Sequence record: PV435126.1
Source of the DNA: Escherichia phage EPFV3-03/2025
Strand: one strand, 5' to 3'
DNA: 64,000 nucleotides
The translations under genes were made by a program, and so were the position numbers. Shown here in pieces: positions 39,276-61,917 of the stretch. Each line of letters opens with the position of its first letter. The first letter of the stretch is position 1. The notes under the pieces were generated by a model that was not told where the DNA came from, did no database searches, and saw nothing but the letters and a program-made list of their open reading frames with translations.

Positions 39276-39626
39276 TCAGTAGATGTTTTGTTTAATCTCT
39301 ATTCCAAACTTTTTAAACGAGTCAGCAGCAAGCATGAATTTACGAGCCGCTGATGGGTTAGAAGTATGCACGAAAATCTTCACGTTGTCAACTACAGGAG
39401 GCTTACCAAATACAAATTTTTCTTCCAGCATAGATAGGCAATCGTACCCTTCAAATACCTCTCCAAGGTCGTTGTCCATGTGCCACTCAGAAACGCGCCT
39501 GTAGAGCTTTCCCTTATCGTTAATAAAATCAATAAACTCAGAGGAATTCTTTAGCCAAAGAGCATCTGGGAGCCCATAATTTGACGGATCTCTCAAGTCA
39601 TCCAGCCACACAATCAACTTCTTCAT
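39276..39626 (-). CDS. hypothetical protein, possible receiver-like RNA-repair accessory domain
   Basis: 116 aa; N-terminal KLIVWLDDLRDP strand-loop; translationally coupled to the RNA ligase gene. Confidence 0.4.
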   Translation of the reverse strand: MKKLIVWLDDLRDPSNYGLPDALWLKNSSEFIDFINDKGKLYRRVSEWHMDNDLGEVFEGYDCLSMLEEKFVFGKPPVVDNVKIFVHTSNPSAARKFMLAADSFKKFGIEIKQNIY

Positions 39627-40558
39627 TGCATATAGTCCTCGTTGTGGAAATAGCAGTCAAGTATCTCACGGCGTTCCTGCTCCAGGAGGCAATTCCACAC
39701 ATCTTCTGTGTAGTTTCTACGAATGAAGTTTACCATGCCGTAAAACTCTTCGTCAACACGTTTAAAGATATCATCATCCCAAATCTTCCAAGCTCTACCC
39801 CTCATTACGACCTTCCGTGCCAGATAGTAGGGAGACTTGATCTTTAGTTGCAGGTCATAAGGGTAGTAAGACTTACGGATCATATACCCTTCGCCCCTTG
39901 TTTCTGCAGCCAACTCTTTTGCATAGCTGAACGGAATTTCACGCACAGTGTGAGGACGTTTTGCACCAAGGTATTTGGCAATACCGTCTAAAGCTGCTTC
40001 TGGTAGCATTATTCCAGAATCATTGTATCGGCAACCGATCAAATAGGCACCATGATCTTCCTGAACAATATGCGGGTCTGAAGGGTGACAAATTTCAAAC
40101 ATGAATGTCATGTTTTCATGGCCCATAACCTTCTTGATAAGATCTAAATTACCACATTGCTCCTGGATTGTTTCCTTTGCGAGGTTACAATATGGAGAAT
40201 CAAGAGACCCTGTTGTTGAGAACAACAGTTCACCTTTGTGAGATGATACCACACCAAGGAATCCGTTCTTTTTCTCTACCGCCGTCACAAGTTTATTGTC
40301 AGGCAGGTTGGTGGAATTTTCTCCCAAGTTAAATACTTTTGTGAAGGGCCATGCCACAACATTTCCTTCATTACCGACAACAATTCCTCGGCACTCTAGT
40401 AAACGCGGAGACAAATGCCATAGATTGTTGTAAAATACTTTTCTGGCATATTTATAGATCTTTAACCCAAGATCTGGATAATACCGACTGGTTACAAGAC
40501 CTTTATCCACTAAATCATCTGCATTAAAATACTTCATCATACATTCCTCGTTTGTCAT
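39623..40558 (-). CDS. RNA ligase-like nucleotidyltransferase
   Basis: 311 aa; candidate motif I KKNG, motif IV EGYMIRK, motif V LKIK; separate from the DNA ligase; next to the Pnkp-like genes. Confidence 0.6.
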   Translation of the reverse strand: MTNEECMMKYFNADDLVDKGLVTSRYYPDLGLKIYKYARKVFYNNLWHLSPRLLECRGIVVGNEGNVVAWPFTKVFNLGENSTNLPDNKLVTAVEKKNGFLGVVSSHKGELLFSTTGSLDSPYCNLAKETIQEQCGNLDLIKKVMGHENMTFMFEICHPSDPHIVQEDHGAYLIGCRYNDSGIMLPEAALDGIAKYLGAKRPHTVREIPFSYAKELAAETRGEGYMIRKSYYPYDLQLKIKSPYYLARKVVMRGRAWKIWDDDIFKRVDEEFYGMVNFIRRNYTEDVWNCLLEQERREILDCYFHNEDYMQ

Positions 40559-40658: not shown

Positions 40659-41069
40659 ATGTCTAAAATGCTGTATATCGTGCGTGGTCTACCAGGTTCT
40701 GGCAAATCAACACTGGCAAATGCACTATCTTTAGAGGGGCTGTACCCACATTTTGAGAACGACATGTTCTGGTACGACGACGATGGAAATTACAACTGGG
40801 ATGCAAGTAAAGTAACACTTGCAGCAAAATGGTGCAAAGATAACGTAGAAGATATGATGCGTATGGGATACGACCGTGTCGTGGTAAGTAATACGTTTAC
40901 AAAAGAAAAACATGTGCAAGAATATGTTGACATGGCAATCAGTCATGGGTATAGTTATACTGTGATCGTGGTTGAAAACCGCCACGGTAATAAGAGCATT
41001 CATGATGTTCCAGATAGGGTTGTGGACCGTATGGAGCGTGAGCTTAAAAACTGCATTAAACTAAAATGA
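40659..41069 (+). CDS. polynucleotide 5'-kinase (Pnkp kinase-domain-like)
   Basis: 136 aa; P-loop GLPGSGKST and VSNT resemble the T4 Pnkp kinase domain. Confidence 0.7.
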   Translation: MSKMLYIVRGLPGSGKSTLANALSLEGLYPHFENDMFWYDDDGNYNWDASKVTLAAKWCKDNVEDMMRMGYDRVVVSNTFTKEKHVQEYVDMAISHGYSYTVIVVENRHGNKSIHDVPDRVVDRMERELKNCIKLK

Positions 41070-41076
41070 GGGATGT

Positions 41077-41631
41077 ATGAAATATTTTGTAACAAGCGAT
41101 ACACACTTTCTCCACCAGCGAGTCATGGAGTTTGATTCATGTCAAAAACACAGATCTCAGTATGATCACAATCTTGACAGTATGAACGAAGGAATCATTG
41201 CAGAGTGGAACTCTGTTGTATCACCAGAAGACACTGTGTTTCACTTGGGCGATATTGCATGCACTAAGGATAAGAATATCAACAACTTATTTCCAGATAT
41301 TCTAAATATGTTGAACGGACATATTATTCTTGTTCGTGGTAACCATGACACAAGGACGACTGTCAGAATTATGAAAGAGTTCGGTCATGAGGTTGTAGAT
41401 TATTACGAGCTTCGCCACAACAAGAATTTGATCTGTATGAGCCATTACCAGTTTGCAAAGTGGAACAGAAAGCCTCACGGATCAGTCCAACTGTTCGGTC
41501 ATGCTCACGGAACCACACAGCAGTTGTTTGGCAGGCAGTTTGATGTCGGTTGGGATGTGTGGGGGAGACTCTTACCATTAGAAGAGGCATACCGTATTGC
41601 AATGAGTCTTGCTATTGACAGCGGGGAGTAA
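41077..41631 (+). CDS. calcineurin-like metallophosphoesterase (candidate 2',3' end-healing phosphatase)
   Basis: 184 aa; SDTHF, GDI, GNHD, GHAH motifs. Confidence 0.8.
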   Translation: MKYFVTSDTHFLHQRVMEFDSCQKHRSQYDHNLDSMNEGIIAEWNSVVSPEDTVFHLGDIACTKDKNINNLFPDILNMLNGHIILVRGNHDTRTTVRIMKEFGHEVVDYYELRHNKNLICMSHYQFAKWNRKPHGSVQLFGHAHGTTQQLFGRQFDVGWDVWGRLLPLEEAYRIAMSLAIDSGE

Positions 41632-41678: not shown

Positions 41679-42029
41679 ATGAAAGAGGAGGATAAGCTGC
41701 CATACCTTAAAGTCCCATTTGGAATACTGTCTATGTCAAAAGTTTTGAATGATACAACTGGAGAGGTTGTTGTTCTTGACTTGTATGACAAGATCGTATA
41801 CTGCTACCTGCACAACTGGTATAAGCTTGGAGGAAATTCACGCTTCACACCCAGCACAAGGAAAATTGCAGCAGATGTTGGGATAAAGAAAACAAAAGCA
41901 GCAGCGTGCGTTAAAACTTTAGAATGTGCAGGCGTGGTTGAAATATCCACACAAGGGAGAGGTAAAAGATGCACATTTTCCAAAGTTTTGCCACCAGAAG
42001 AGGTTATTCGAATGTCAACAACTGGTTAG
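41679..42029 (+). CDS. winged-helix DNA-binding protein, candidate initiator or repressor
   Basis: 116 aa; STRKIAADVGIKKTKAAACVKTLECAGVV helix-turn-helix-like segment; followed by an iteron array. Confidence 0.5.
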   Translation: MKEEDKLPYLKVPFGILSMSKVLNDTTGEVVVLDLYDKIVYCYLHNWYKLGGNSRFTPSTRKIAADVGIKKTKAAACVKTLECAGVVEISTQGRGKRCTFSKVLPPEEVIRMSTTG

Positions 42030-42090
42030 ACCAGTAAAAACTTAAATATCTGTACTATAAGGATTCGTATGTTTTATGTCCATCCAAGAG

Positions 42091-42176
42091 CAGAGGGTAG
42101 TAACTGTCCGTAATACGGACACTACTGCCCGTCACGCGGACACATCTGCCCGTAATACGGACACTAACTGTCCGCA
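42091..42176. repeat. four tandem 21-22 bp repeats each containing the dyad GyCCG-N5-CGGAC
   Basis: taactgtccgtaatacggacac / tactgcccgtcacgcggacac / atctgcccgtaatacggacac / taactgtccgcaatacggacac, directly abutting. Confidence 0.85.
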
Positions 42177-42690
42177 ATACGGACACATAAAGAATATAAC
42201 TAAAATAACTAAATAATAAAAAATAAAAGATCTAGTACTTATGGTACTAAAGTACATATACTTAACTTATGTAGAATATACTAGATCCTAAGTACCATGT
42301 TTTAAATTTATTACTTACTATTGGTAGTGTCGGCCCTTCATTGGCACTCGCCTACGAGGGGCGAGATGCCGGGCCTCCATAGTGCACACAATAACAGGAG
42401 TGCATACATGCAGGACTGTTAACATGTGTGGGAGCGAAGCGATAGCGCAGGCCAAAGGCCGAGCACTAATGTGGACCACCGACGAAAGCTTGCCAGCGCC
42501 GTAAGGAGTCGGTTGAGAGCCTCCCGCGAGAGTTTAGTTAAAGTTTATGTGTGGAAACGGACAGGAAGGCCCCTAAATCGCCACACAGCTGCGTAAACTA
42601 TACCAAGTAAGGCAATCGCACCAGTTTGATAGAAAAGCTCGTTACAAAGCGATACAGTGAGTTTTTCTATAACTTGAAGAGGAGGCAGTT

Positions 42691-43269
42691 ATGAGTTCAC
42701 GCAAAGATGACCGCGAAAAGATTGCAAAACGTTATCAGAATGAAGAACAGATGGAGAAAACTTTCAAGTGGAAGCCAGGTTTCCAGCGTAATCATTCTAA
42801 CGCTCGTGATCGTAAGCATCCGGATAAGTGGCTAACACCGCCAAATGATGGCATGCAGGTTGGTGATGAGAAGGAGCTATCGCCTGGAAAAGATGGCAAC
42901 TACATTCGCACTAAGGACGCTGGTCCAAAGGATGACAGCTATCTTGTAGATAAGGTTCTTGATGGTATTGATGTAGATGTTGACACCACACGGAACTTTT
43001 TTCTTGGGTGGTATCGCACAGGTTTTTTCGACATCAAGGCCATTCGTCGTGTTTGTGATATTAAAAAGTCTGCATATGATGACGACTCGTTACATCGCAC
43101 CCTGAGGCAATATTCAGAAAGATATGGTCATCCGGTTATCACTCTTGACGATGTTGACGAAGTGATGTATCATGCAGAGGTTGTTGCAGGCAGATTTGGT
43201 GATGCATATCTTGATATCCTTTCTGCAAACGATGAGGTAATGTTGAATAAGATTTACTACGAACGTTGA
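42691..43269 (+). CDS. hypothetical protein
   Basis: 192-aa ORF with ggagg RBS. Confidence 0.5.
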   Translation: MSSRKDDREKIAKRYQNEEQMEKTFKWKPGFQRNHSNARDRKHPDKWLTPPNDGMQVGDEKELSPGKDGNYIRTKDAGPKDDSYLVDKVLDGIDVDVDTTRNFFLGWYRTGFFDIKAIRRVCDIKKSAYDDDSLHRTLRQYSERYGHPVITLDDVDEVMYHAEVVAGRFGDAYLDILSANDEVMLNKIYYER

Positions 43270-43279
43270 GGAGAGCTTA

Positions 43280-43468
43280 ATGAACAATCCGGTAGCAAAG
43301 AACTGTAATAAGTTCAACAAGTCTGCAATTCACACTGACAGGAAAAAGAGCTGGTCACCGGACATTGACGAGGAGCTTGAGAATTACTTTGAAGATCTGG
43401 TTACCAATGCAGGTGAGGTTGCGATTAAAGAATACGCAGACAGGAGGGATAAGGCCGGAATCTGTTGA
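43280..43468 (+). CDS. hypothetical protein
   Basis: 62-aa ORF. Confidence 0.4.
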   Translation: MNNPVAKNCNKFNKSAIHTDRKKSWSPDIDEELENYFEDLVTNAGEVAIKEYADRRDKAGIC

Positions 43469-43493
43469 CAAAAATAATGTTACCTGATAAGAT
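43465..43493 (+). promoter_or_regulatory. sigma70-like promoter
   Basis: TTGACA-N17-TAAGAT. Confidence 0.5.
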
Positions 43494-44566: not shown

Positions 44567-44641
44567 GCCCTGTTAGCTTAGTGGATAAAGCAGCGGCCTT
44601 CTAAGCCGTTGACACTGGTTCGAGTCCAGTACGGGGTGCCA
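44567..44641 (+). tRNA. tRNA-Arg (anticodon UCU)
   Basis: Cloverleaf by eye: acceptor gccctgt/acggggt, anticodon loop cttctaa, T-loop ttcgagt, encoded CCA. Confidence 0.75.
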
Positions 44642-44645
44642 AATT

Positions 44646-44732
44646 GGGGAGTTATCCCGTAGAGGTAGCGGTGTAGACTGTAAATCTATTGTCATTGCGA
44701 CTCGGGTGGTTCGACTCCACCACTCCCCACCA
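44646..44732 (+). tRNA. tRNA-Tyr (anticodon GUA)
   Basis: Acceptor ggggagt/actcccc, anticodon loop ctgtaaa, long variable arm, T-loop ttcgact, CCA. Confidence 0.75.
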
Positions 44733-44856
44733 AATTTATATTTTTAAATGCATAAATCATACAGATAATGACATTGATATTTATCGTCGTTTATACTAGT
44801 CACTAACTGCTCGAAAATCAGTGTCATTATCAGTGTAATTTATAAAGGAGGGTAGG

Positions 44857-44947
44857 GAGCAATGGTGCTCAAGCGGTCTTGAAAACCGTCCCGTTGAGGA
44901 TGACTCGATGATGGTTCGATTCCATTACTCTCCGCCACATTGTTGAC
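44857..44947 (+). tRNA. tRNA-Ser (anticodon UGA)
   Basis: Acceptor ggagggt/actctcc, anticodon stem-loop gcggt-cttgaaa-accgt, long variable arm, T-loop ttcgatt, CCA; exact 5' end uncertain. Confidence 0.6.
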
Positions 44948-45035
44948 CTTGTAATTAAGCGAAAGCCGGAAGCAGAACCGGATTATCAAATGTTACAGTC
45001 GTCATCGCCGACTAGCCACATGGTCAACATATTGC

Positions 45036-45134
45036 GCTAGGTAAGCCCTTTGGCAAGGGCGAGGATTTTTAATCCTGAAAATAGACGAGGTAGTCGTTGA
45101 ATACATAGGTGGTTCGATTCCATCACCTAGCACC
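45036..45134 (+). tRNA. atypical oversized tRNA-like element (about 99 nt; anticodon uncertain, loop candidate tttttaa)
   Basis: Perfect 7-bp acceptor pairing gctaggt/acctagc, D-arm gccc-tttggcaa-gggc, T-arm ggtgg-ttcgatt-ccatc, but about 30 nt between anticodon arm and T-arm. Confidence 0.4.
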
Positions 45135-45139
45135 TTTTT

Positions 45140-45215
45140 GCTGATGTAGCACAATTGGCAGTGCAATTGATTTGTAATCAATAGGTTGCAGGTTCGAGTC
45201 CTGCCATCAGCACCA
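45140..45215 (+). tRNA. tRNA-Thr (anticodon UGU)
   Basis: Acceptor gctgatg/catcagc, anticodon stem-loop attga-tttgtaa-tcaat, T-loop ttcgagt, CCA. Confidence 0.75.
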
Positions 45216-45216
45216 T

Positions 45217-45291
45217 GGCCCTGTAGCTGGAAGGTTCAAGCAAGCGACTCATAATCGCCAGACGGTGGTTCAATTCCACCCAGGGCCACCA
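45217..45291 (+). tRNA. tRNA-Met or Ile2 (anticodon CAU)
   Basis: Acceptor ggccctg/cagggcc, anticodon loop ctcataa, T-loop ttcaatt, CCA. Confidence 0.7.
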
Positions 45292-45303
45292 AATAATAAA
45301 TAC

Positions 45304-45379
45304 TCCGCGTAGCTCAGCTTGGTAGAGCGCCTGATTTGGGATCAGGAGGTCGAGTGTTCGAATCACTCCGTGGAGACCA
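45304..45379 (+). tRNA. tRNA-Pro (anticodon UGG)
   Basis: Acceptor ctccgcg/cgtggag with C1-G72, anticodon stem-loop cctga-tttggga-tcagg, T-loop ttcgaat, CCA. Confidence 0.7.
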
Positions 45380-54252: not shown

Positions 54253-54717
54253 ATGCTAAAGGTTAAATGTCAAACCAGGTTCAACCTAAAGCGTTTAGAT
54301 CGCTTTTACAAAGACCTTGTGAAACTCGAAAGCAAAACAATAACCTACGGCTTTTATGATGAACCTCACCCGTCAGGCTTAAATATGGCAACATTGGCAG
54401 CTATTCACAACTTCGGTTGGAACGGACTGCCTGTTCGCAATTTCATGGAGACGGCCTTTGCATTTCACAGCACGCAACTGCAGACCTTGACAGAAAAATT
54501 GTTGAGAGCTATGGCTAGAGGATCAAGTGCAGAGGCTGTTCTTAAGCAGATGGGAGACACAGGGGCCAAAGCTATCCAGTTTGTTATTGAGGCTGGGCAG
54601 TTTAGTAACCCTACTGTTAGTGAGCAGTGGGCACAAGAGAAGGGCTTCAACGAGGCTATGCGGCATTACGATGTGCTGCTGGAATCTGCAACCTTTAAAA
54701 TTGGACAGCAAAAATAA
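54253..54717 (+). CDS. hypothetical virion morphogenesis protein
   Basis: ORF 54241..54717, start probably MLKVKCQ. Confidence 0.5.
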   Translation: MLKVKCQTRFNLKRLDRFYKDLVKLESKTITYGFYDEPHPSGLNMATLAAIHNFGWNGLPVRNFMETAFAFHSTQLQTLTEKLLRAMARGSSAEAVLKQMGDTGAKAIQFVIEAGQFSNPTVSEQWAQEKGFNEAMRHYDVLLESATFKIGQQK

Positions 54718-61032: not shown

Positions 61033-61917
61033 ATGCCAAGCAATATAGTTGATGAAAAAGACCTGTACAAGCCTCAAGAGGTTAAATCTCCAAAGGCTGA
61101 AAAGGCAGAGCAGCAAGCTGAAAGCGATGTAAAATACACTATGTTTGTCAGCGGTCTTAACTATGGTGGTCGCAATACGGAGATGAAGGGTAAAAACTTT
61201 ACTAACGATCTTGCCATCATCTTCGATCAGATTGAGAACTACTCTTTCAAACATACGGTTGATAAGACTGATTTTGCGGTGGAAGATAAATCTACCCTGT
61301 CAGACCACGCTGTAATTAAAGATGGTGTATTTTCTTTTACTGGTAGGGTAAATACATCACCACATATAATCTATGAGCAAAACTACATTGACAGGAATAC
61401 TGACTCTAAAAACCCTGCAGCATCTATGCGACCAGGCGCTGCACTAGAGGCTTTGACTGAGATCATTAATAAGCGCCAGTTGGTTTCTTTGGTTACCGAG
61501 GAGAGACTCCTTGAGAACTACATCATAACCAGCCTTTCTGCCAACAAGTCTGTTGGTGAAGGTGCTGCGATGGTGTTTGATGTAGAACTTACAGAGTTCC
61601 GCACATTCTACTTGAACAAGGTTGTTAATGCAACTGTATACAGCAACCCTAAGAAAGTAGGCAAGACCCAGCAAAAAGGTGCTGTCAACGACTGTAAGAA
61701 TGGCAGCAACGTAGGTAACAAGAGGGACACAGGGGCATTTGCAGACACTGCATCCACAAATGCCGCAGAAGAGTGGCAGCCATACAAATCTATGATGTGG
61801 ACGGATGAAAACGGTGTTACTCAATCTGCTGCGGATTGGTATTATCAGGAATATGGAAGACCTTCTACCATAGTCCCATCTGAGCAGGGAAACTACAACA
61901 AAGTTAACGGAAAATAA
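61033..61917 (+). CDS. hypothetical tail or baseplate protein
   Basis: ORF 61006..61917, start probably MPSNIV. Confidence 0.5.
   Translation: MPSNIVDEKDLYKPQEVKSPKAEKAEQQAESDVKYTMFVSGLNYGGRNTEMKGKNFTNDLAIIFDQIENYSFKHTVDKTDFAVEDKSTLSDHAVIKDGVFSFTGRVNTSPHIIYEQNYIDRNTDSKNPAASMRPGAALEALTEIINKRQLVSLVTEERLLENYIITSLSANKSVGEGAAMVFDVELTEFRTFYLNKVVNATVYSNPKKVGKTQQKGAVNDCKNGSNVGNKRDTGAFADTASTNAAEEWQPYKSMMWTDENGVTQSAADWYYQEYGRPSTIVPSEQGNYNKVNGK

What the first reader, a model, noticed from the sequence alone, without database searches (positions are those of the whole stretch)
42311..42690. About 380-bp GC-rich segment with no ORF of 60 aa or more on either strand: candidate structured ncRNA
Between the AT-rich tract and the next gene the composition becomes GC-rich, with many short complementary segments (cactcgcc..ggcgag, ggcc-aaa-ggcc, cggccc..gggccg), yet the ORF track shows no ORF here on either strand; GC-rich random sequence would normally give longer open frames. 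This could be a structured RNA (for example a Y-RNA-like or tRNA-like partner of the adjacent RNA-repair genes) or a structured replication element.
Basis: inference. Interest (0 to 1): 0.6.

Follow-up and report, generated by a model that had tools for sequence, protein, structure and literature searches.

The report
Folded arm of phage replication origin
The GC-rich gap is a real, non-coding, hairpin-rich element that always sits beside the swappable replication-origin repeats of rV5-like phages, of small satellite-like E. coli plasmids and of an uncultured phage group. It most likely marks where DNA priming starts.

Summary
Window 42317-42622 (+) is 52-54% GC, has no ORF of 60 aa or more, shows no coding signature and matches no Rfam family.

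The window is an rV5-like Vequintavirus. The element lies directly after a Rep-like gene, four iterons and an AT-rich tract, at the genome's GC-skew switch.

Homologues occur in all ~118 Vequintavirus records. They also occur in 13-kb E. coli plasmids that carry phage capsid and tail genes, and in four uncultured 118-140 kb phage contigs. Each copy follows a different Rep/iteron set.

A 6-bp helix closing a three-way junction is paired in all 12 distinct sequences. Four of its six pairs show compensatory changes.

The + strand carries the window's densest cluster of DNA mini-hairpin motifs (GCGAAGC, GCGATAGC, CCGTAAGG). These are far more stable as DNA than as RNA and are typical of primase start sites such as phage G4 oric. 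Relatives keep motifs of this class with different loops.

Best reading (~0.5): an origin-flanking single-stranded-DNA priming or primosome-loading signal. Main rival (~0.27): a structured RNA. A Y-RNA or tRNA-like partner of the RNA-repair genes is not supported.

Resemblance to G4 oric is a lead, not significant. No experimental evidence was available.

The parts
41679..42029 (+). Rep-like helix-turn-helix gene (116 aa)
   Evidence: Matches phrog_12838 'replication initiation protein' at 4e-76 and Pfam HTH_36/DUF6945 weakly. In the divergent relative L002 it is replaced by a different 143-aa Rep-like gene (phrog_8102).
42101..42186 (.). Four tandem ~21-22 bp iterons (TAACTGTCCGTAATACGGACAC and variants)
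   Evidence: the repeat finder family D1, spacing 21, 21, 22. L002, the satellites and clade B carry unrelated iterons at the same relative position.
42187..42316 (.). AT-rich tract (candidate DNA-unwinding element), with inverted repeat GATCTAGTA 42229-42237 / TACTAGATC 42279-42287, each arm containing a GATC site
   Evidence: GC is 0.355. Sequence read directly. This tract is not homologous in L002; conservation starts only at about 42329.
42317..42383 (+). 5' hairpin domain. It comprises P0 (ACTATTGG 42317-42324 with CCATAGT 42377-42383), P1 (GGCCC 42332-42336 with GGGCC 42371-42375) and P1a (GGCA-CTCGCC 42343-42352 with GGCGAG-A-TGCC 42360-42370).
   Evidence: Invariant within Vequintavirus. 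Satellite L004 has GTCA-CTCTCC / GGAGAG-A-TGAC, which is two G-C to T-A compensatory pairs. P0 shows T-A to G-C in L135 and L140, and G.T variants.
42385..42430 (+). Hairpin P2 (CACACA/TGTGTG closing helix, TAACAG/CTGTTA, TGCA/TGCA)
   Evidence: 96-98% of cells paired. rV5, L139 and L142 carry an 18-nt deletion that leaves a new 8-bp helix CACACATG/CATGTGTG. Satellites and clade B have a variable number of hairpin cassettes here, each ending in TGTGTGGG.
42428..42527 (+). Core domain closed by helix PL (GTGGGAG 42428-42434 with CTCCCGC 42521-42527)
   Evidence: Paired in 11-12 of 12 Vequintavirus sequences. Clade B has an analogous helix, GGATC/GATCT, with G.T to A-T and T-A to T.G changes; this was aligned by hand. 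Support is moderate.
42434..42446 (+). Two overlapping DNA mini-hairpin motifs, GCGAAGC (42434-42440) and GCGATAGC (42439-42446)
   Evidence: Motif scan. Both sequences are listed as extraordinarily stable DNA mini-hairpins (Tm 76.5 and 71 C) in PMC13037366. Satellites have GCGAATGC+GCGTCAGC, overlapping in the same way, at the homologous place.
42450..42460 (+). Hairpin GGCC-AAA-GGCC
   Evidence: 98% paired. Replaced by ATGC-GTCA-GCAT in satellites.
42478..42513 (+). Helix A (ACCGAC 42478-42483 with GTCGGT 42508-42513) closing a three-way junction. The junction holds GAAA 42484-42487, mini-hairpin h1 (GCT-TGCC-AGC, 42488-42497) and mini-hairpin h2 (CC-GTAA-GG, 42499-42506).
   Evidence: the count of structure pairs on A4: 100% of cells paired, 4 of 6 helix-A pairs with compensatory change, slid controls 14-57% paired. 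h1 is AGC-GAA-GCT or AGC-TAA-GCT in clade B. The h2 loop is GTAA, GGAA or GGGA. CM R1 scores true members at 61-80 bits and chance pattern hits at 24 bits or less.
42549..42603 (+). 3' domain. It comprises helix X (GTGTGG 42549-42554 with CTATAC 42598-42603), the conserved CCCCTAAAT 42570-42578, and hairpin Y (GCC 42580-42582 with AGC 42587-42589).
   Evidence: Helix X is 97% paired, with G.T to G-C and T-A to C-G changes. Hairpin Y has 2 of 3 pairs with compensatory change (L002; satellites by hand alignment). Satellites form CACTCACA/TGTGAGTG at the same place.
42617..42622 (+). 3' strand (CGCACC) of a candidate long-range helix with GGTAGTG 42323-42329 that would close the whole element
   Evidence: RNAalifold prediction. 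L129 keeps it through two one-sided changes, and L002 has GGTGTG/CACACC. It competes with P0 for G42323-42324. Support is weak.
42629..42690 (+). Separate conserved hairpin (ATAGAAAAGCTC 42629-42640 with GAGTTTTTCTAT 42659-42670) and Shine-Dalgarno sequence of ORF77
   Evidence: Inverted repeat I9. Almost invariant, including in L002. Absent from satellites. In clade B and the satellites a consensus sigma-70 promoter occupies this place.
42426..42596 (+). 56-codon GTG ORF (rV5 'ORF 78'), judged non-coding
   Evidence: Variable columns by codon position are 21:29:23. Synonymous/nonsynonymous counts of 91/311 match an off-frame control at 90/311. No Pfam or PHROG hit. A 1-nt indel shifts the frame in about half of the satellite copies.
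42691..43269 (+). ORF77 (192 aa, unknown function), the next gene
   Evidence: phrog_12226, no Pfam or PDB match. A 50%-identical homologue in clade B lies 5 kb away from the element, with only a 60-nt upstream gap. The element is therefore not tied to this gene.

Best explanation
Window 42317-42622 is the constant, folded arm of a modular iteron-type replication origin. The layout is Rep gene, iterons, AT-rich unwinding tract, folded element.

Proposed mechanism. Rep bound to the iterons opens the AT tract. The adjacent + strand becomes single-stranded; it is the lagging-strand template of a fork leaving to the right. It folds into hairpins: the helix-A three-way junction, tandem GCGNAGC / GCGNNAGC / CCGNNAGG mini-hairpins, and others. 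These resist SSB coating and mark where a primase or primosome (host DnaG/PriA or the phage's own enzyme) makes the first primer. This would be a single-strand initiation (ssi) signal of the kind known from phage G4 oric and from plasmid origins.

Such a signal is read by shared replication machinery, not by the specific Rep. That would explain why it stays the same while Rep/iteron cassettes are exchanged, and why satellite-like plasmids and another phage clade of the same host carry it.

Shown: the fold is conserved by compensatory change; the element is non-coding; it is always next to iterons plus an AT tract; and DNA mini-hairpin motifs are enriched on the + strand.

Inferred: that this locus is the origin, that the active form is single-stranded DNA, and that the activity is priming or loading.
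For: 1. Origin context. There are four iterons, a Rep-like gene and an AT tract. The cumulative GC-skew minimum and gene-strand switch lie at about 40 kb.

2. Modularity. L002 has a different Rep and different iterons, and homology starts exactly at the element. Satellite-like plasmids show at least 5 iteron types before the same element. Clade B shows at least 2 iteron types.

3. Structure. Helix A and its junction are 100% paired, 4 of 6 pairs are compensatory, and slid controls give 14-57%. The 5' hairpin has two compensatory pairs in L004. An 18-nt deletion preserves the structure.

4. DNA signature. Three Hirao mini-hairpin motifs lie on the + strand and none on the - strand, against a background of 0.53 per kb per strand. 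This is the densest 306-nt window on the + strand of the 64 kb (>=3 motifs in 0.38% of + strand windows). Relatives keep 2-3 motifs of the class with changed loops. These motifs melt at about 76 C as DNA and 39 C as RNA. They occur at G4, St-1 and alpha3 primer sites and in RSF1010 ssiA (PMC13037366).

5. Resemblance to G4 oric. G4 has GGACGGCGAAAGC...GCCGTCC; clade B has GACGGC-GAAA...GCCGTC. AATGTGGG and GTGCCTACGG are also shared. The two best CM hits in the whole G4 genome both fall in oric on the viral strand.

6. Promoters. No consensus promoter lies upstream of the element in satellites or clade B. A strong one lies just downstream, so there the element is outside the downstream transcription unit.
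Against: - No origin has been mapped experimentally in these phages.
- Similarity to G4 oric is not statistically significant: CM E = 0.23 and 1.3, and blastn and nhmmer hits are in the noise.
- The DnaG start triplet CTG follows helix A only in clade B, not in Vequintavirus or the satellites.
- At about 300 nt, with a multi-branch fold and candidate long-range helices (PL, closing helix), it is larger and more RNA-like than known ssi signals, which are roughly 40-140 nt.
- In Vequintavirus no promoter or terminator separates it from the flanking + strand genes. It is therefore certainly transcribed there.
- The + RNA fold has the best z-score and a well-defined ensemble in the window.
- The strand is not proven. 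Thermodynamic z-scores do not separate the strands across clades. Polymorphic G.T against A.C pairs are 10 against 6.
- Within-genus covariation alone is not significant.
Confidence: 0.5

Rival explanations
1. A structured RNA made from the + strand. It could be a cis-acting part of the transcript that crosses the origin (primer precursor, R-loop control, mRNA processing or stability domain). Or it could be a stand-alone ncRNA shared by the phages and their satellites.
For: - The element is co-oriented with the flanking genes in all lineages.
- No terminator or promoter separates it from the upstream operon in Vequintavirus.
- The + RNA fold has z = -2.67, and its MFE and centroid nearly coincide. 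The - RNA fold has z = -1.75 and an ill-defined ensemble.
- The architecture is multi-branch, with a three-way junction, a GNRA-type loop varying as GUAA/GGAA/GGGA, and candidate long-range helices.
- G.U pairs sit in supported helices, for example helix X.
Against: - No Rfam family matches.
- No promoter is evident upstream in satellites or clade B, and a strong promoter lies just after it.
- The 2-3 bp mini-hairpins conserved as a class would be unstable as RNA (Tm 39 C against 76 C).
- Loops I first read as UUCG tetraloops on the + strand are CCGAAGG DNA mini-hairpins on the - strand.
- The strand preference in energy does not hold in other clades.
- An RNA role gives no obvious reason for strict adjacency to iterons.
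Confidence: 0.27
2. A double-stranded DNA protein-binding region. Examples are the pac site recognised by the helper phage's small terminase, which satellites would copy in order to be packaged, or an array of regulator or DnaA-like sites (TGTGG/CCACA repeats).
For: - Vequintaviruses package by the headful (pac) mechanism (PMC8407724; PMC13211470).
- The 13-kb plasmids have capsid and tail genes but no annotated terminase.
- This element was the only shared non-coding DNA found between them and the phages in the two parts of the plasmid searched (1-4000 and 9500-13689).
- TGTGG-type motifs recur 3-6 times.
Against: - Compensatory base changes that preserve intrastrand pairing are not expected for a duplex binding site.
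- TGTGG copies are irregularly spaced (35-123 nt). They are lost in L001, L002 and L137, with pairing kept.
- The element is about 3.7 kb from the terminase gene, with a tRNA cluster in between.
- It always sits at the iterons rather than at packaging genes.
Confidence: 0.07
3. A 5' leader that regulates translation or stability of ORF77 (42691-43269).
For: It lies directly upstream of ORF77 in Vequintavirus. The last 60 nt (hairpin plus Shine-Dalgarno sequence, 42629-42690) are the most conserved part.
Against: - Satellites have no ORF77.
- In clade B the ORF77 homologue lies 5 kb away with a 60-nt upstream gap. There the element precedes a promoter and an HNH endonuclease gene.
- The 42629-42690 hairpin is a separate unit that is not shared with the other clades.
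Confidence: 0.04
4. It encodes a small basic protein (the 56-aa 'ORF 78', annotated in rV5 and other records).
For: The frame is open in all 12 phage copies and extends to 65-89 codons in L002 and L137. The indels seen inside it are multiples of three.
Against: - There is no third-position excess (21:29:23), and the synonymous/nonsynonymous ratio equals an off-frame control.
- It has a GTG start, no family hit and no homologue outside the genus.
- A 1-nt indel in half of the satellites shifts the frame across the most conserved core.
- Clade B differs by non-triplet indels.
Confidence: 0.02

Closest known systems
G4-type single-strand initiation signals: phage G4, St-1 and alpha3 origins of complementary-strand synthesis. 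From memory, not checked here: the 'G-site' next to oriR of plasmids R1/R100.
   Same: - A strand-specific set of hairpins lying beside or acting as an origin.
- It contains GCGAAAGC-class mini-hairpins that exclude SSB and mark where primase starts (PMC13037366).
- Clade B helix A plus GAAA is nearly identical to G4 Hairpin I (GACGGCGAAA...GCCGTC), and AATGTGGG is shared.
- Such signals can be combined with different initiators.
   Different: - About 300 nt, against about 140 nt.
- A three-way junction with two inserted mini-hairpins where G4 has a simple hairpin.
- Variable hairpin cassettes.
- The CTG start site is absent after helix A in Vequintavirus and the satellites.
- Sequence and CM similarity is not significant.
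- It sits in double-stranded virulent myovirus genomes and satellite-like plasmids.
RSF1010 ssiA/ssiB and PriA-type primosome assembly sites (ColE1 pas, pAMbeta1 ssiA)
   Same: These are origin-proximal hairpins on one strand that recruit a primase or primosome. RSF1010 ssiA contains a CCGAAGG mini-hairpin. The order rep gene, origin, ssi in pAMbeta1 (from memory) resembles Rep, iterons, AT tract, element here.
   Different: No sequence similarity was tested or found. Those sites are 40-100 nt single hairpins. The dedicated primase (RepB') or PriA dependence is unknown here.
ColE1 RNA II (structured primer precursor)
   Same: A structured non-coding segment several hundred nucleotides long next to an origin, conserved by pairing.
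   Different: RNA II has its own promoter and is transcribed towards the origin. Here the favoured strand runs away from the iterons and AT tract, and no upstream promoter is seen. No antisense RNA I-like partner was found.
Bacterial Y RNA / tRNA-like RNAs linked to RNA-repair operons
   Same: Adjacent to RNA ligase, PNK and phosphoesterase genes in Vequintavirus. A closing helix between the 5' and 3' ends is possible.
   Different: No Rfam Y_RNA, YrlA or tRNA match. The adjacency to repair genes is lost in satellites and clade B, while adjacency to iterons is kept.

Membership tests
G4-type ssi signal (DnaG-dependent priming site) | Lies at or beside a replication origin, on one specific strand | tested here: met
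   It follows the iterons and AT tract, in the same orientation, in four lineages with at least 9 iteron types. That the locus is an origin is itself inferred (Rep-like gene, iterons, GC-skew switch).
G4-type ssi signal (DnaG-dependent priming site) | Stable intrastrand hairpins maintained in evolution, including SSB-resistant GCGNAGC / GCGNNAGC-type mini-hairpins | tested here: met
   Helix A is 100% paired with 4 of 6 compensatory pairs. Three mini-hairpin motifs lie on the + strand against 0.16 expected. The class is conserved with changed loops in satellites and clade B. Motif properties come from PMC13037366.
G4-type ssi signal (DnaG-dependent priming site) | Recognisable sequence or structure homology to G4 / St-1 / alpha3 oric | tested here: inconclusive
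   The two top CM R1 hits in the G4 genome both fall in oric on the viral strand, but with E = 0.23 and 1.3. blastn and nhmmer are not significant. Shared strings were seen by eye.
G4-type ssi signal (DnaG-dependent priming site) | 5'-CTG-3' primer start site a few nucleotides 3' of the primase-recognised hairpin | tested here: not met
   Present 8 nt after helix A in clade B (GAAGATCTGC). Absent in Vequintavirus (GTCGGTTGAGAGCCTCCC) and in satellites (GGCAGCAAAGAGTCTCCC). A phage primase with another start triplet would not need it.
G4-type ssi signal (DnaG-dependent priming site) | Supports SSB- and primase-dependent primer synthesis on single-stranded DNA | not testable with these tools
   Needs an M13/f1 ssi complementation assay or an in vitro priming assay.
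Any described RNA family (Rfam 15: Y RNA, tRNA-like, RNase P, SRP, tmRNA, 6S, group I/II introns, ROOL/GOLLD, others) | Covariance-model score at or near the family's gathering threshold | tested here: not met
   In the whole window at gathering score, only tRNAs at 44567-45376 match. In 41900-42900 at E<=10 there are only chance-level hits far below gathering. Satellites give none. ARAGORN finds no tRNA or tmRNA in the element.
Y RNA partner of RNA-repair genes | Conserved linkage to rsr/rtcB-type or other RNA-repair genes | tested here: not met
   RNA ligase, PNK and phosphoesterase genes flank it only in Vequintavirus. Satellites and clade B carry the element without them.
ColE1 RNA II-type primer RNA | Own promoter, with transcription directed towards the origin | tested here: not met
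   No consensus promoter reads into the element from either side, except a weak 9/12 match on the - strand in L004. The supported orientation points away from the iterons.
Protein-coding gene (rV5 ORF 78) | Purifying selection on codons and a frame conserved among homologues | tested here: not met
   Codon-position counts are 21:29:23. Synonymous/nonsynonymous counts equal the off-frame control. Frame-shifting indels occur in satellites and clade B.
pac site | Start point of headful packaging series; small-terminase binding | not testable with these tools
   Only indirect evidence is available. Pairing covariation and iteron linkage argue against it. The packaging type comes from the literature.

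The most novel reading that the evidence does not exclude
The element is a new family of origin-coupled structured RNA, or an RNA/DNA dual-use fold, shared by virulent rV5-like phages, an uncultured phage clade and plasmid-like satellites. The satellites would keep a copy of the helper's origin arm in order to capture the helper's replication machinery during infection. This would be a mode of molecular piracy not yet described for phage satellites.
Probability: 0.2. Interest if true: 0.8.

Novelty: new variant of a known kind. Interest (0 to 1): 0.6.

Why it matters
rV5-like phages are widely isolated and are used in phage-therapy collections, yet their replication origin and its parts have not been defined. 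In GenBank this segment is either unannotated or called as small hypothetical CDSs.

If the reading is right, four things follow:
1. It locates the origin and gives a testable priming or loading signal.
2. It shows that an origin can be built from a swappable specificity module (Rep plus iterons) and a constant structured module shared across unrelated replicons.
3. It ties a set of 13-kb E. coli 'plasmids' with capsid and tail genes to rV5-like phages, as likely satellites.
4. It extends the natural occurrence of DNA mini-hairpin motifs at priming sites from small ssDNA phages and RSF1010 to large virulent myoviruses.

If the element instead proves to be an RNA, it is an undescribed RNA family with covariation support.

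Tried and rejected
- **Rfam.** Gathering score on the window, E<=10 on 1 kb, and E<=1 on three satellites gave nothing.
- **tRNA/tmRNA scan.** Nothing in the element.
- **Other Vequintavirinae or related genera.** Both flanking proteins are confined to about 118 Vequintavirus records. Regions around the phosphoesterase homologue in Seunavirus 4MG and Justusliebigvirus ESCO8 have no such gap and no CM hit.
- **A 14-mer pattern scan of IMG/VR.** It returned more than 120 chance loci.
- **A degenerate pattern in genome contigs.** It gave 18 hits, all with CM scores of 17 bits or less, so all chance. The exact core pattern gave 0 hits there.
- **RNase P-like and SRP-like strings** (CCGGGCCUCCAUAG; CC-GGAA-GGAGGCAGC), noticed by eye. 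Not supported by the covariance models, and the SRP-like part varies between clades as the helix A strand.
- **TGTGTGG repeats as protein-binding sites.** Irregular spacing and loss with compensation.
- **Strand assignment by folding energy.** It worked for the window but not across clades.
- **Strand assignment by G.U against A.C polymorphism.** 10 against 6 pairs, inconclusive.
- **UUCG loops as an RNA signature.** Withdrawn, because the complement is a CCGAAGG DNA mini-hairpin.
- **ORF77 function.** No Pfam or PDB match. Its distant homologue revealed clade B but no function.
- **Literature.** Searches for rV5/Vequintavirus with satellite, noncoding RNA or transcriptome found nothing relevant.
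Full report
**What the window is**

Bases 42000-42800 match about 118 GenBank records of rV5-like phages (genus Vequintavirus) at 90-99% identity. The best match is vB_EcoM_SYGMH1 at 98.9%.

The local gene order is:
- RNA ligase (-) 39623-40558
- polynucleotide kinase 40659-41069
- phosphoesterase 41077-41631
- a 116-aa helix-turn-helix protein of the PHROG 'replication initiation protein' family, 41679-42029
- a 661-bp gap
- a 192-aa ORF of unknown function (rV5 ORF 77), 42691-43269
- small ORFs, a tRNA cluster at 44567-45379, and then the terminase

The gap has three parts. There are four ~21-bp iterons at 42101-42186. An AT-rich tract follows at 42187-42316 (GC 0.355). The GC-rich block of the finding comes last. 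The genome's cumulative GC skew has its minimum, and the genes change strand, at about 40 kb.

**Check of the observation**

The + strand of 42316-42628 folds with z = -2.67 against dinucleotide shuffles.

A 56-codon GTG ORF (42426-42596) is annotated as a CDS in rV5 and in BASEL phage records. It stays open in all twelve phage copies I aligned. Three results argue against coding:
- Variable columns fall 21:29:23 over codon positions.
- The synonymous/nonsynonymous counts (91/311) equal those of an off-frame control (90/311).
- It has no Pfam or PHROG match, and the frame is shifted by indels in satellites and clade B.

I treat it as non-coding.

**Known RNA families**

cmscan against Rfam 15 finds only the tRNAs in the window at gathering score. 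Nothing credible appears in 41900-42900 at E<=10. ARAGORN finds nothing in the element.

**Relatives, and where the conservation begins**

*A divergent Vequintavirus.* Contig L002 from IMG/VR encodes an ORF77 that is 82% identical. It has a different Rep-like gene, different iterons and an unrelated AT tract. Homology to the window starts sharply at about 42329 and runs to the ATG.

*Satellite-like plasmids.* blastn against E. coli genomes and plasmids found partial matches (83-87%) in 13.2-13.7 kb circular 'plasmids' and in a 39.6-kb trimer of one. Two metagenome contigs of 13.9 and 15.5 kb are of the same kind. These replicons encode:
- a major capsid protein, a tape-measure protein and a baseplate protein
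- a weakly Rep/O-like 303-aa protein
- no annotated terminase

Their baseplate protein is 52-55% identical to the one encoded at window 61162-61719. I searched two parts of one plasmid (positions 1-4000 and 9500-13689 of 13689) against all GenBank phages. The only shared DNA found was this element, and it matched all Vequintaviruses. In the plasmids the element follows iterons of at least five unrelated types, a short AT tract, and usually a G-rich tract.

*Clade B.* A 50%-identical ORF77 homologue (P0006) led to a Logan contig (L150/L151). A gapped pattern then found three IMG/VR contigs of 118-140 kb (L152-L154). None of them matches any GenBank phage. In these contigs a recognisable copy of the core lies downstream of yet other iterons: two types, CCAAGGGCCAAATAATGGCCC and CAGTACGGAAACC. 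A consensus sigma-70 promoter and an HNH endonuclease gene lie downstream of the core. The ORF77 homologue sits 5 kb away without the element.

*Family membership.* A covariance model of the 53-nt core scores all members at 61-80 bits. Every pattern-selected decoy from bacterial genomes and other viral contigs scores 24 bits or less. The model finds nothing in Seunavirus or Justusliebigvirus regions.

**Structure**

The best-supported feature is helix A with the junction it closes:
- Helix A is ACCGAC 42478-42483 paired with GTCGGT 42508-42513.
- It closes a three-way junction made of GAAA, a 3-bp hairpin h1 and a CC-GNRA-GG hairpin h2.
- The helix reads GCTGCC/GGCAGC in satellites and GACGGC/GCCGTC in clade B.

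On a MAFFT alignment of 12 distinct sequences, every cell pairs. Four of six pairs have changes on both sides. Partners slid by 1-3 columns pair in only 14-57% of cells, with 0-2 compensatory pairs. h1 is GCT-TGCC-AGC in phage and satellite copies, and AGC-GAA-GCT or AGC-TAA-GCT in clade B. The h2 loop varies as GTAA, GGAA and GGGA.

Other helices have support of differing strength:
- The 5' hairpin shows two G-C to T-A compensations in satellite L004.
- P0 shows T-A to G-C changes within the genus.
- rV5 itself carries an 18-nt deletion in hairpin P2 that recreates an 8-bp closing helix.
- Helix X and hairpin Y in the 3' domain show compensatory and wobble changes in L002. By hand alignment they also do so in satellites.

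Within the genus alone the curated 65-pair structure is 96.8% paired, against 33-43% for slid controls. But variation is too low for significant covariation: 78 of 500 shuffles reach the observed value. The case rests on the cross-clade comparisons.

Satellites and clade B carry a variable number of extra hairpin cassettes between the 5' end and the core. Each cassette ends in (GAGT)TGTGTGGG. These TGTGG strings are stem halves, not fixed binding sites: they are irregularly spaced, and where they are lost the pairing is kept.

**DNA or RNA, and which strand**

I first leaned to RNA. The reasons were the better z-score and well-defined ensemble of the + RNA fold in the window, GNRA-like and UUCG-like loops, and G.U pairs. 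Several of these arguments did not survive:
- Across clades the two strands have similar z-scores.
- Polymorphic G.U against A.C pairs are 10 against 6.
- The 'UUCG' loops on the + strand are CCGAAGG on the - strand.

Two observations then pointed to single-stranded DNA.

First, the phage G4 complementary-strand origin shares three things with the family. Its Hairpin I (GGACGGCGAAAGC...GCCGTCC) resembles clade B's helix A plus GAAA. It shares AATGTGGG, and it shares GTGCCTACGG with a satellite cassette. The core model's two best hits in the whole G4 genome both fall in that 140-nt origin, on the viral strand. However, they have E = 0.23 and 1.3, and blastn and nhmmer see nothing significant. 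This is a lead, not a test.

Second, the element is rich in the mini-hairpin motifs reviewed in PMC13037366 (GCGNAGC, GCGNNAGC, CCGNNAGG). According to that review they are extraordinarily stable as DNA (Tm about 76 C) but not as RNA (39 C). They bind SSB poorly. They occur at the primer sites of G4, St-1 and alpha3 and in RSF1010 ssiA.

The window's + strand has GCGAAGC (42434), GCGATAGC (42439) and CCGTAAGG (42499), and none on the - strand. The background is 0.53 per kb per strand. This is the densest such 306-nt window on the + strand of the 64 kb, with three or more motifs in only 0.38% of windows.

Satellites keep an overlapping pair with other loops (GCGAATGC+GCGTCAGC) at the homologous place, plus CCGGAAGG. 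Clade B has GCGAAGC inside h1, plus CCGGRAGG. Conservation of the motif class under sequence change is hard to explain for RNA, where 2-bp hairpins are unstable.

The absence of a promoter upstream, and the presence of a strong one just downstream, in satellites and clade B fits a DNA element better than part of a transcription unit.

**Most likely mechanism (confidence about 0.5)**

The segment is the constant structured arm of a modular origin. Rep binds the iterons and opens the AT tract. The adjacent + strand, which is the lagging-strand template of the rightward fork, is exposed and folds into SSB-resistant hairpins. A primase or primosome starts the first primer there.

Because the host or phage replisome reads this arm, and not the specific Rep, it can stay constant while Rep/iteron cassettes are swapped. 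It can also be shared by phages, satellites and another phage clade of the same host.

Shown: non-coding status, conserved fold, strict iteron linkage, and mini-hairpin enrichment. Inferred: origin function, single-stranded DNA as the active form, and priming.

Points against:
- No origin mapping exists.
- The G4 similarity is not significant.
- There is no CTG start triplet after helix A in Vequintavirus or the satellites.
- The size and multi-branch fold are unusual for an ssi signal.
- The region is certainly transcribed in Vequintavirus.

**Rivals**

- A structured RNA: origin transcript or stand-alone ncRNA (about 0.27).
- A duplex protein-binding site such as pac (about 0.07). Vequintaviruses are headful packagers, but pairing covariation and iteron linkage argue against it.
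- A leader of ORF77 (about 0.04). The linkage is lost in satellites and clade B.
- A small protein (about 0.02).
- The remainder is for no function or something not considered.

**Comparison with what is known, and novelty**

The element works most like G4-type and other single-strand initiation signals. It meets their positional and structural criteria. It fails the CTG criterion in two of three clades, and it cannot be shown to be homologous to them. I therefore file it as a new variant of that kind, not as a member.

It is not a member of any Rfam family, and it is not a Y-RNA-like partner of the repair genes.

I found no paper describing it, the satellite-like plasmids or clade B. That search covers open-access literature only.

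Noticed in passing
L126 (NZ_CP020521.1), L143 (CP148565.1), L144 (NZ_CP035869.1), L145 (NZ_CP178698.1), L146 (NZ_CP043822.1, 39.6-kb trimer), L127 and L132 (metagenome contigs): 13-14 kb circular E. coli 'plasmids' encode a major capsid protein, a tape-measure protein, a baseplate protein (52-55% aa identity to window 61162-61719), another rV5-like protein (49% to window 54340-54681) and a weakly Rep/O-like protein. No terminase is annotated. They carry 2-3 kb of non-coding DNA with several iteron arrays. They look like plasmid-borne satellites of rV5-like phages. They occur in only 4 of 5,426 complete E. coli genomes. I found no description of them in the literature I could search.
   Followed up: partly
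L150/L151 (Logan DRR174583_581), L152-L154 (IMG/VR 3300045988 contigs of 118-140 kb): An uncultured phage clade carries a diverged copy of the element next to its own iterons, an ORF77 homologue (50% identity) and a DUF7230 protein. It has no DNA match in 50,697 GenBank phage records. An HNH endonuclease gene with a consensus promoter follows the element.
   Followed up: partly
window 42101-42316: There are four ~21-bp iterons, each with an internal palindrome (GTCCGTAATACGGAC). An AT-rich tract follows, containing a 9-bp inverted repeat with two GATC sites. This is probably the phage's replication origin. The Rep/iteron/AT module is exchanged as a block in relative L002.
   Followed up: partly
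window 42629-42690: A 12-bp hairpin with an 18-nt loop lies immediately before the Shine-Dalgarno sequence of ORF77. It is almost invariant across the genus, more conserved than the coding sequence that follows. It may be a translational control or mRNA-stability element of ORF77.
   Followed up: no
window 45036-45134 and 44847-44937: ARAGORN calls a 99-nt tRNA with a four-base anticodon (atcc). Rfam scores it weakly (35.5 bits), and a BASEL record annotates the homologue as tRNA-Lys. A 91-nt tRNA-Ser (tga) is found by ARAGORN but not by Rfam at gathering score.
   Followed up: no
window 42426-42596; rV5 DQ832317.1 64759-64929; BASEL records: Public records annotate one to three small 'hypothetical protein' CDSs inside the non-coding origin region. 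These are probably annotation artefacts.
   Followed up: yes
window 43465-43493; L004 1602-1630; L151 4707-4735: Near-consensus sigma-70 promoters with an extended -10 (TTGACA-17-TAAGAT or TATGGT, preceded by TG) are shared in style by the phage, the satellites and clade B. This suggests that all use host RNA polymerase for early genes in the same way.
   Followed up: no
satellites, about 100-130 nt upstream of the core (e.g. L145, L143): A conserved G-rich/C-rich tract (CCCCCCTAACCCCCCAGGGGGAATGGGGAGGGATCAGAGAGTGGGGAAGG) lies between the AT tract and the element in most satellites. It is absent from the phages and from satellite L004. It could form a G-quadruplex or an R-loop. Its role is unexplained.
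   Followed up: no
rV5 record DQ832317.1 58027-60872 (about 46.4-49.3 kb in the window by synteny; position not checked): The large terminase gene is annotated as joined from three pieces in rV5, yet Rfam finds no group I or II intron in the window at gathering score. The nature of the interruptions was not examined.
   Followed up: no
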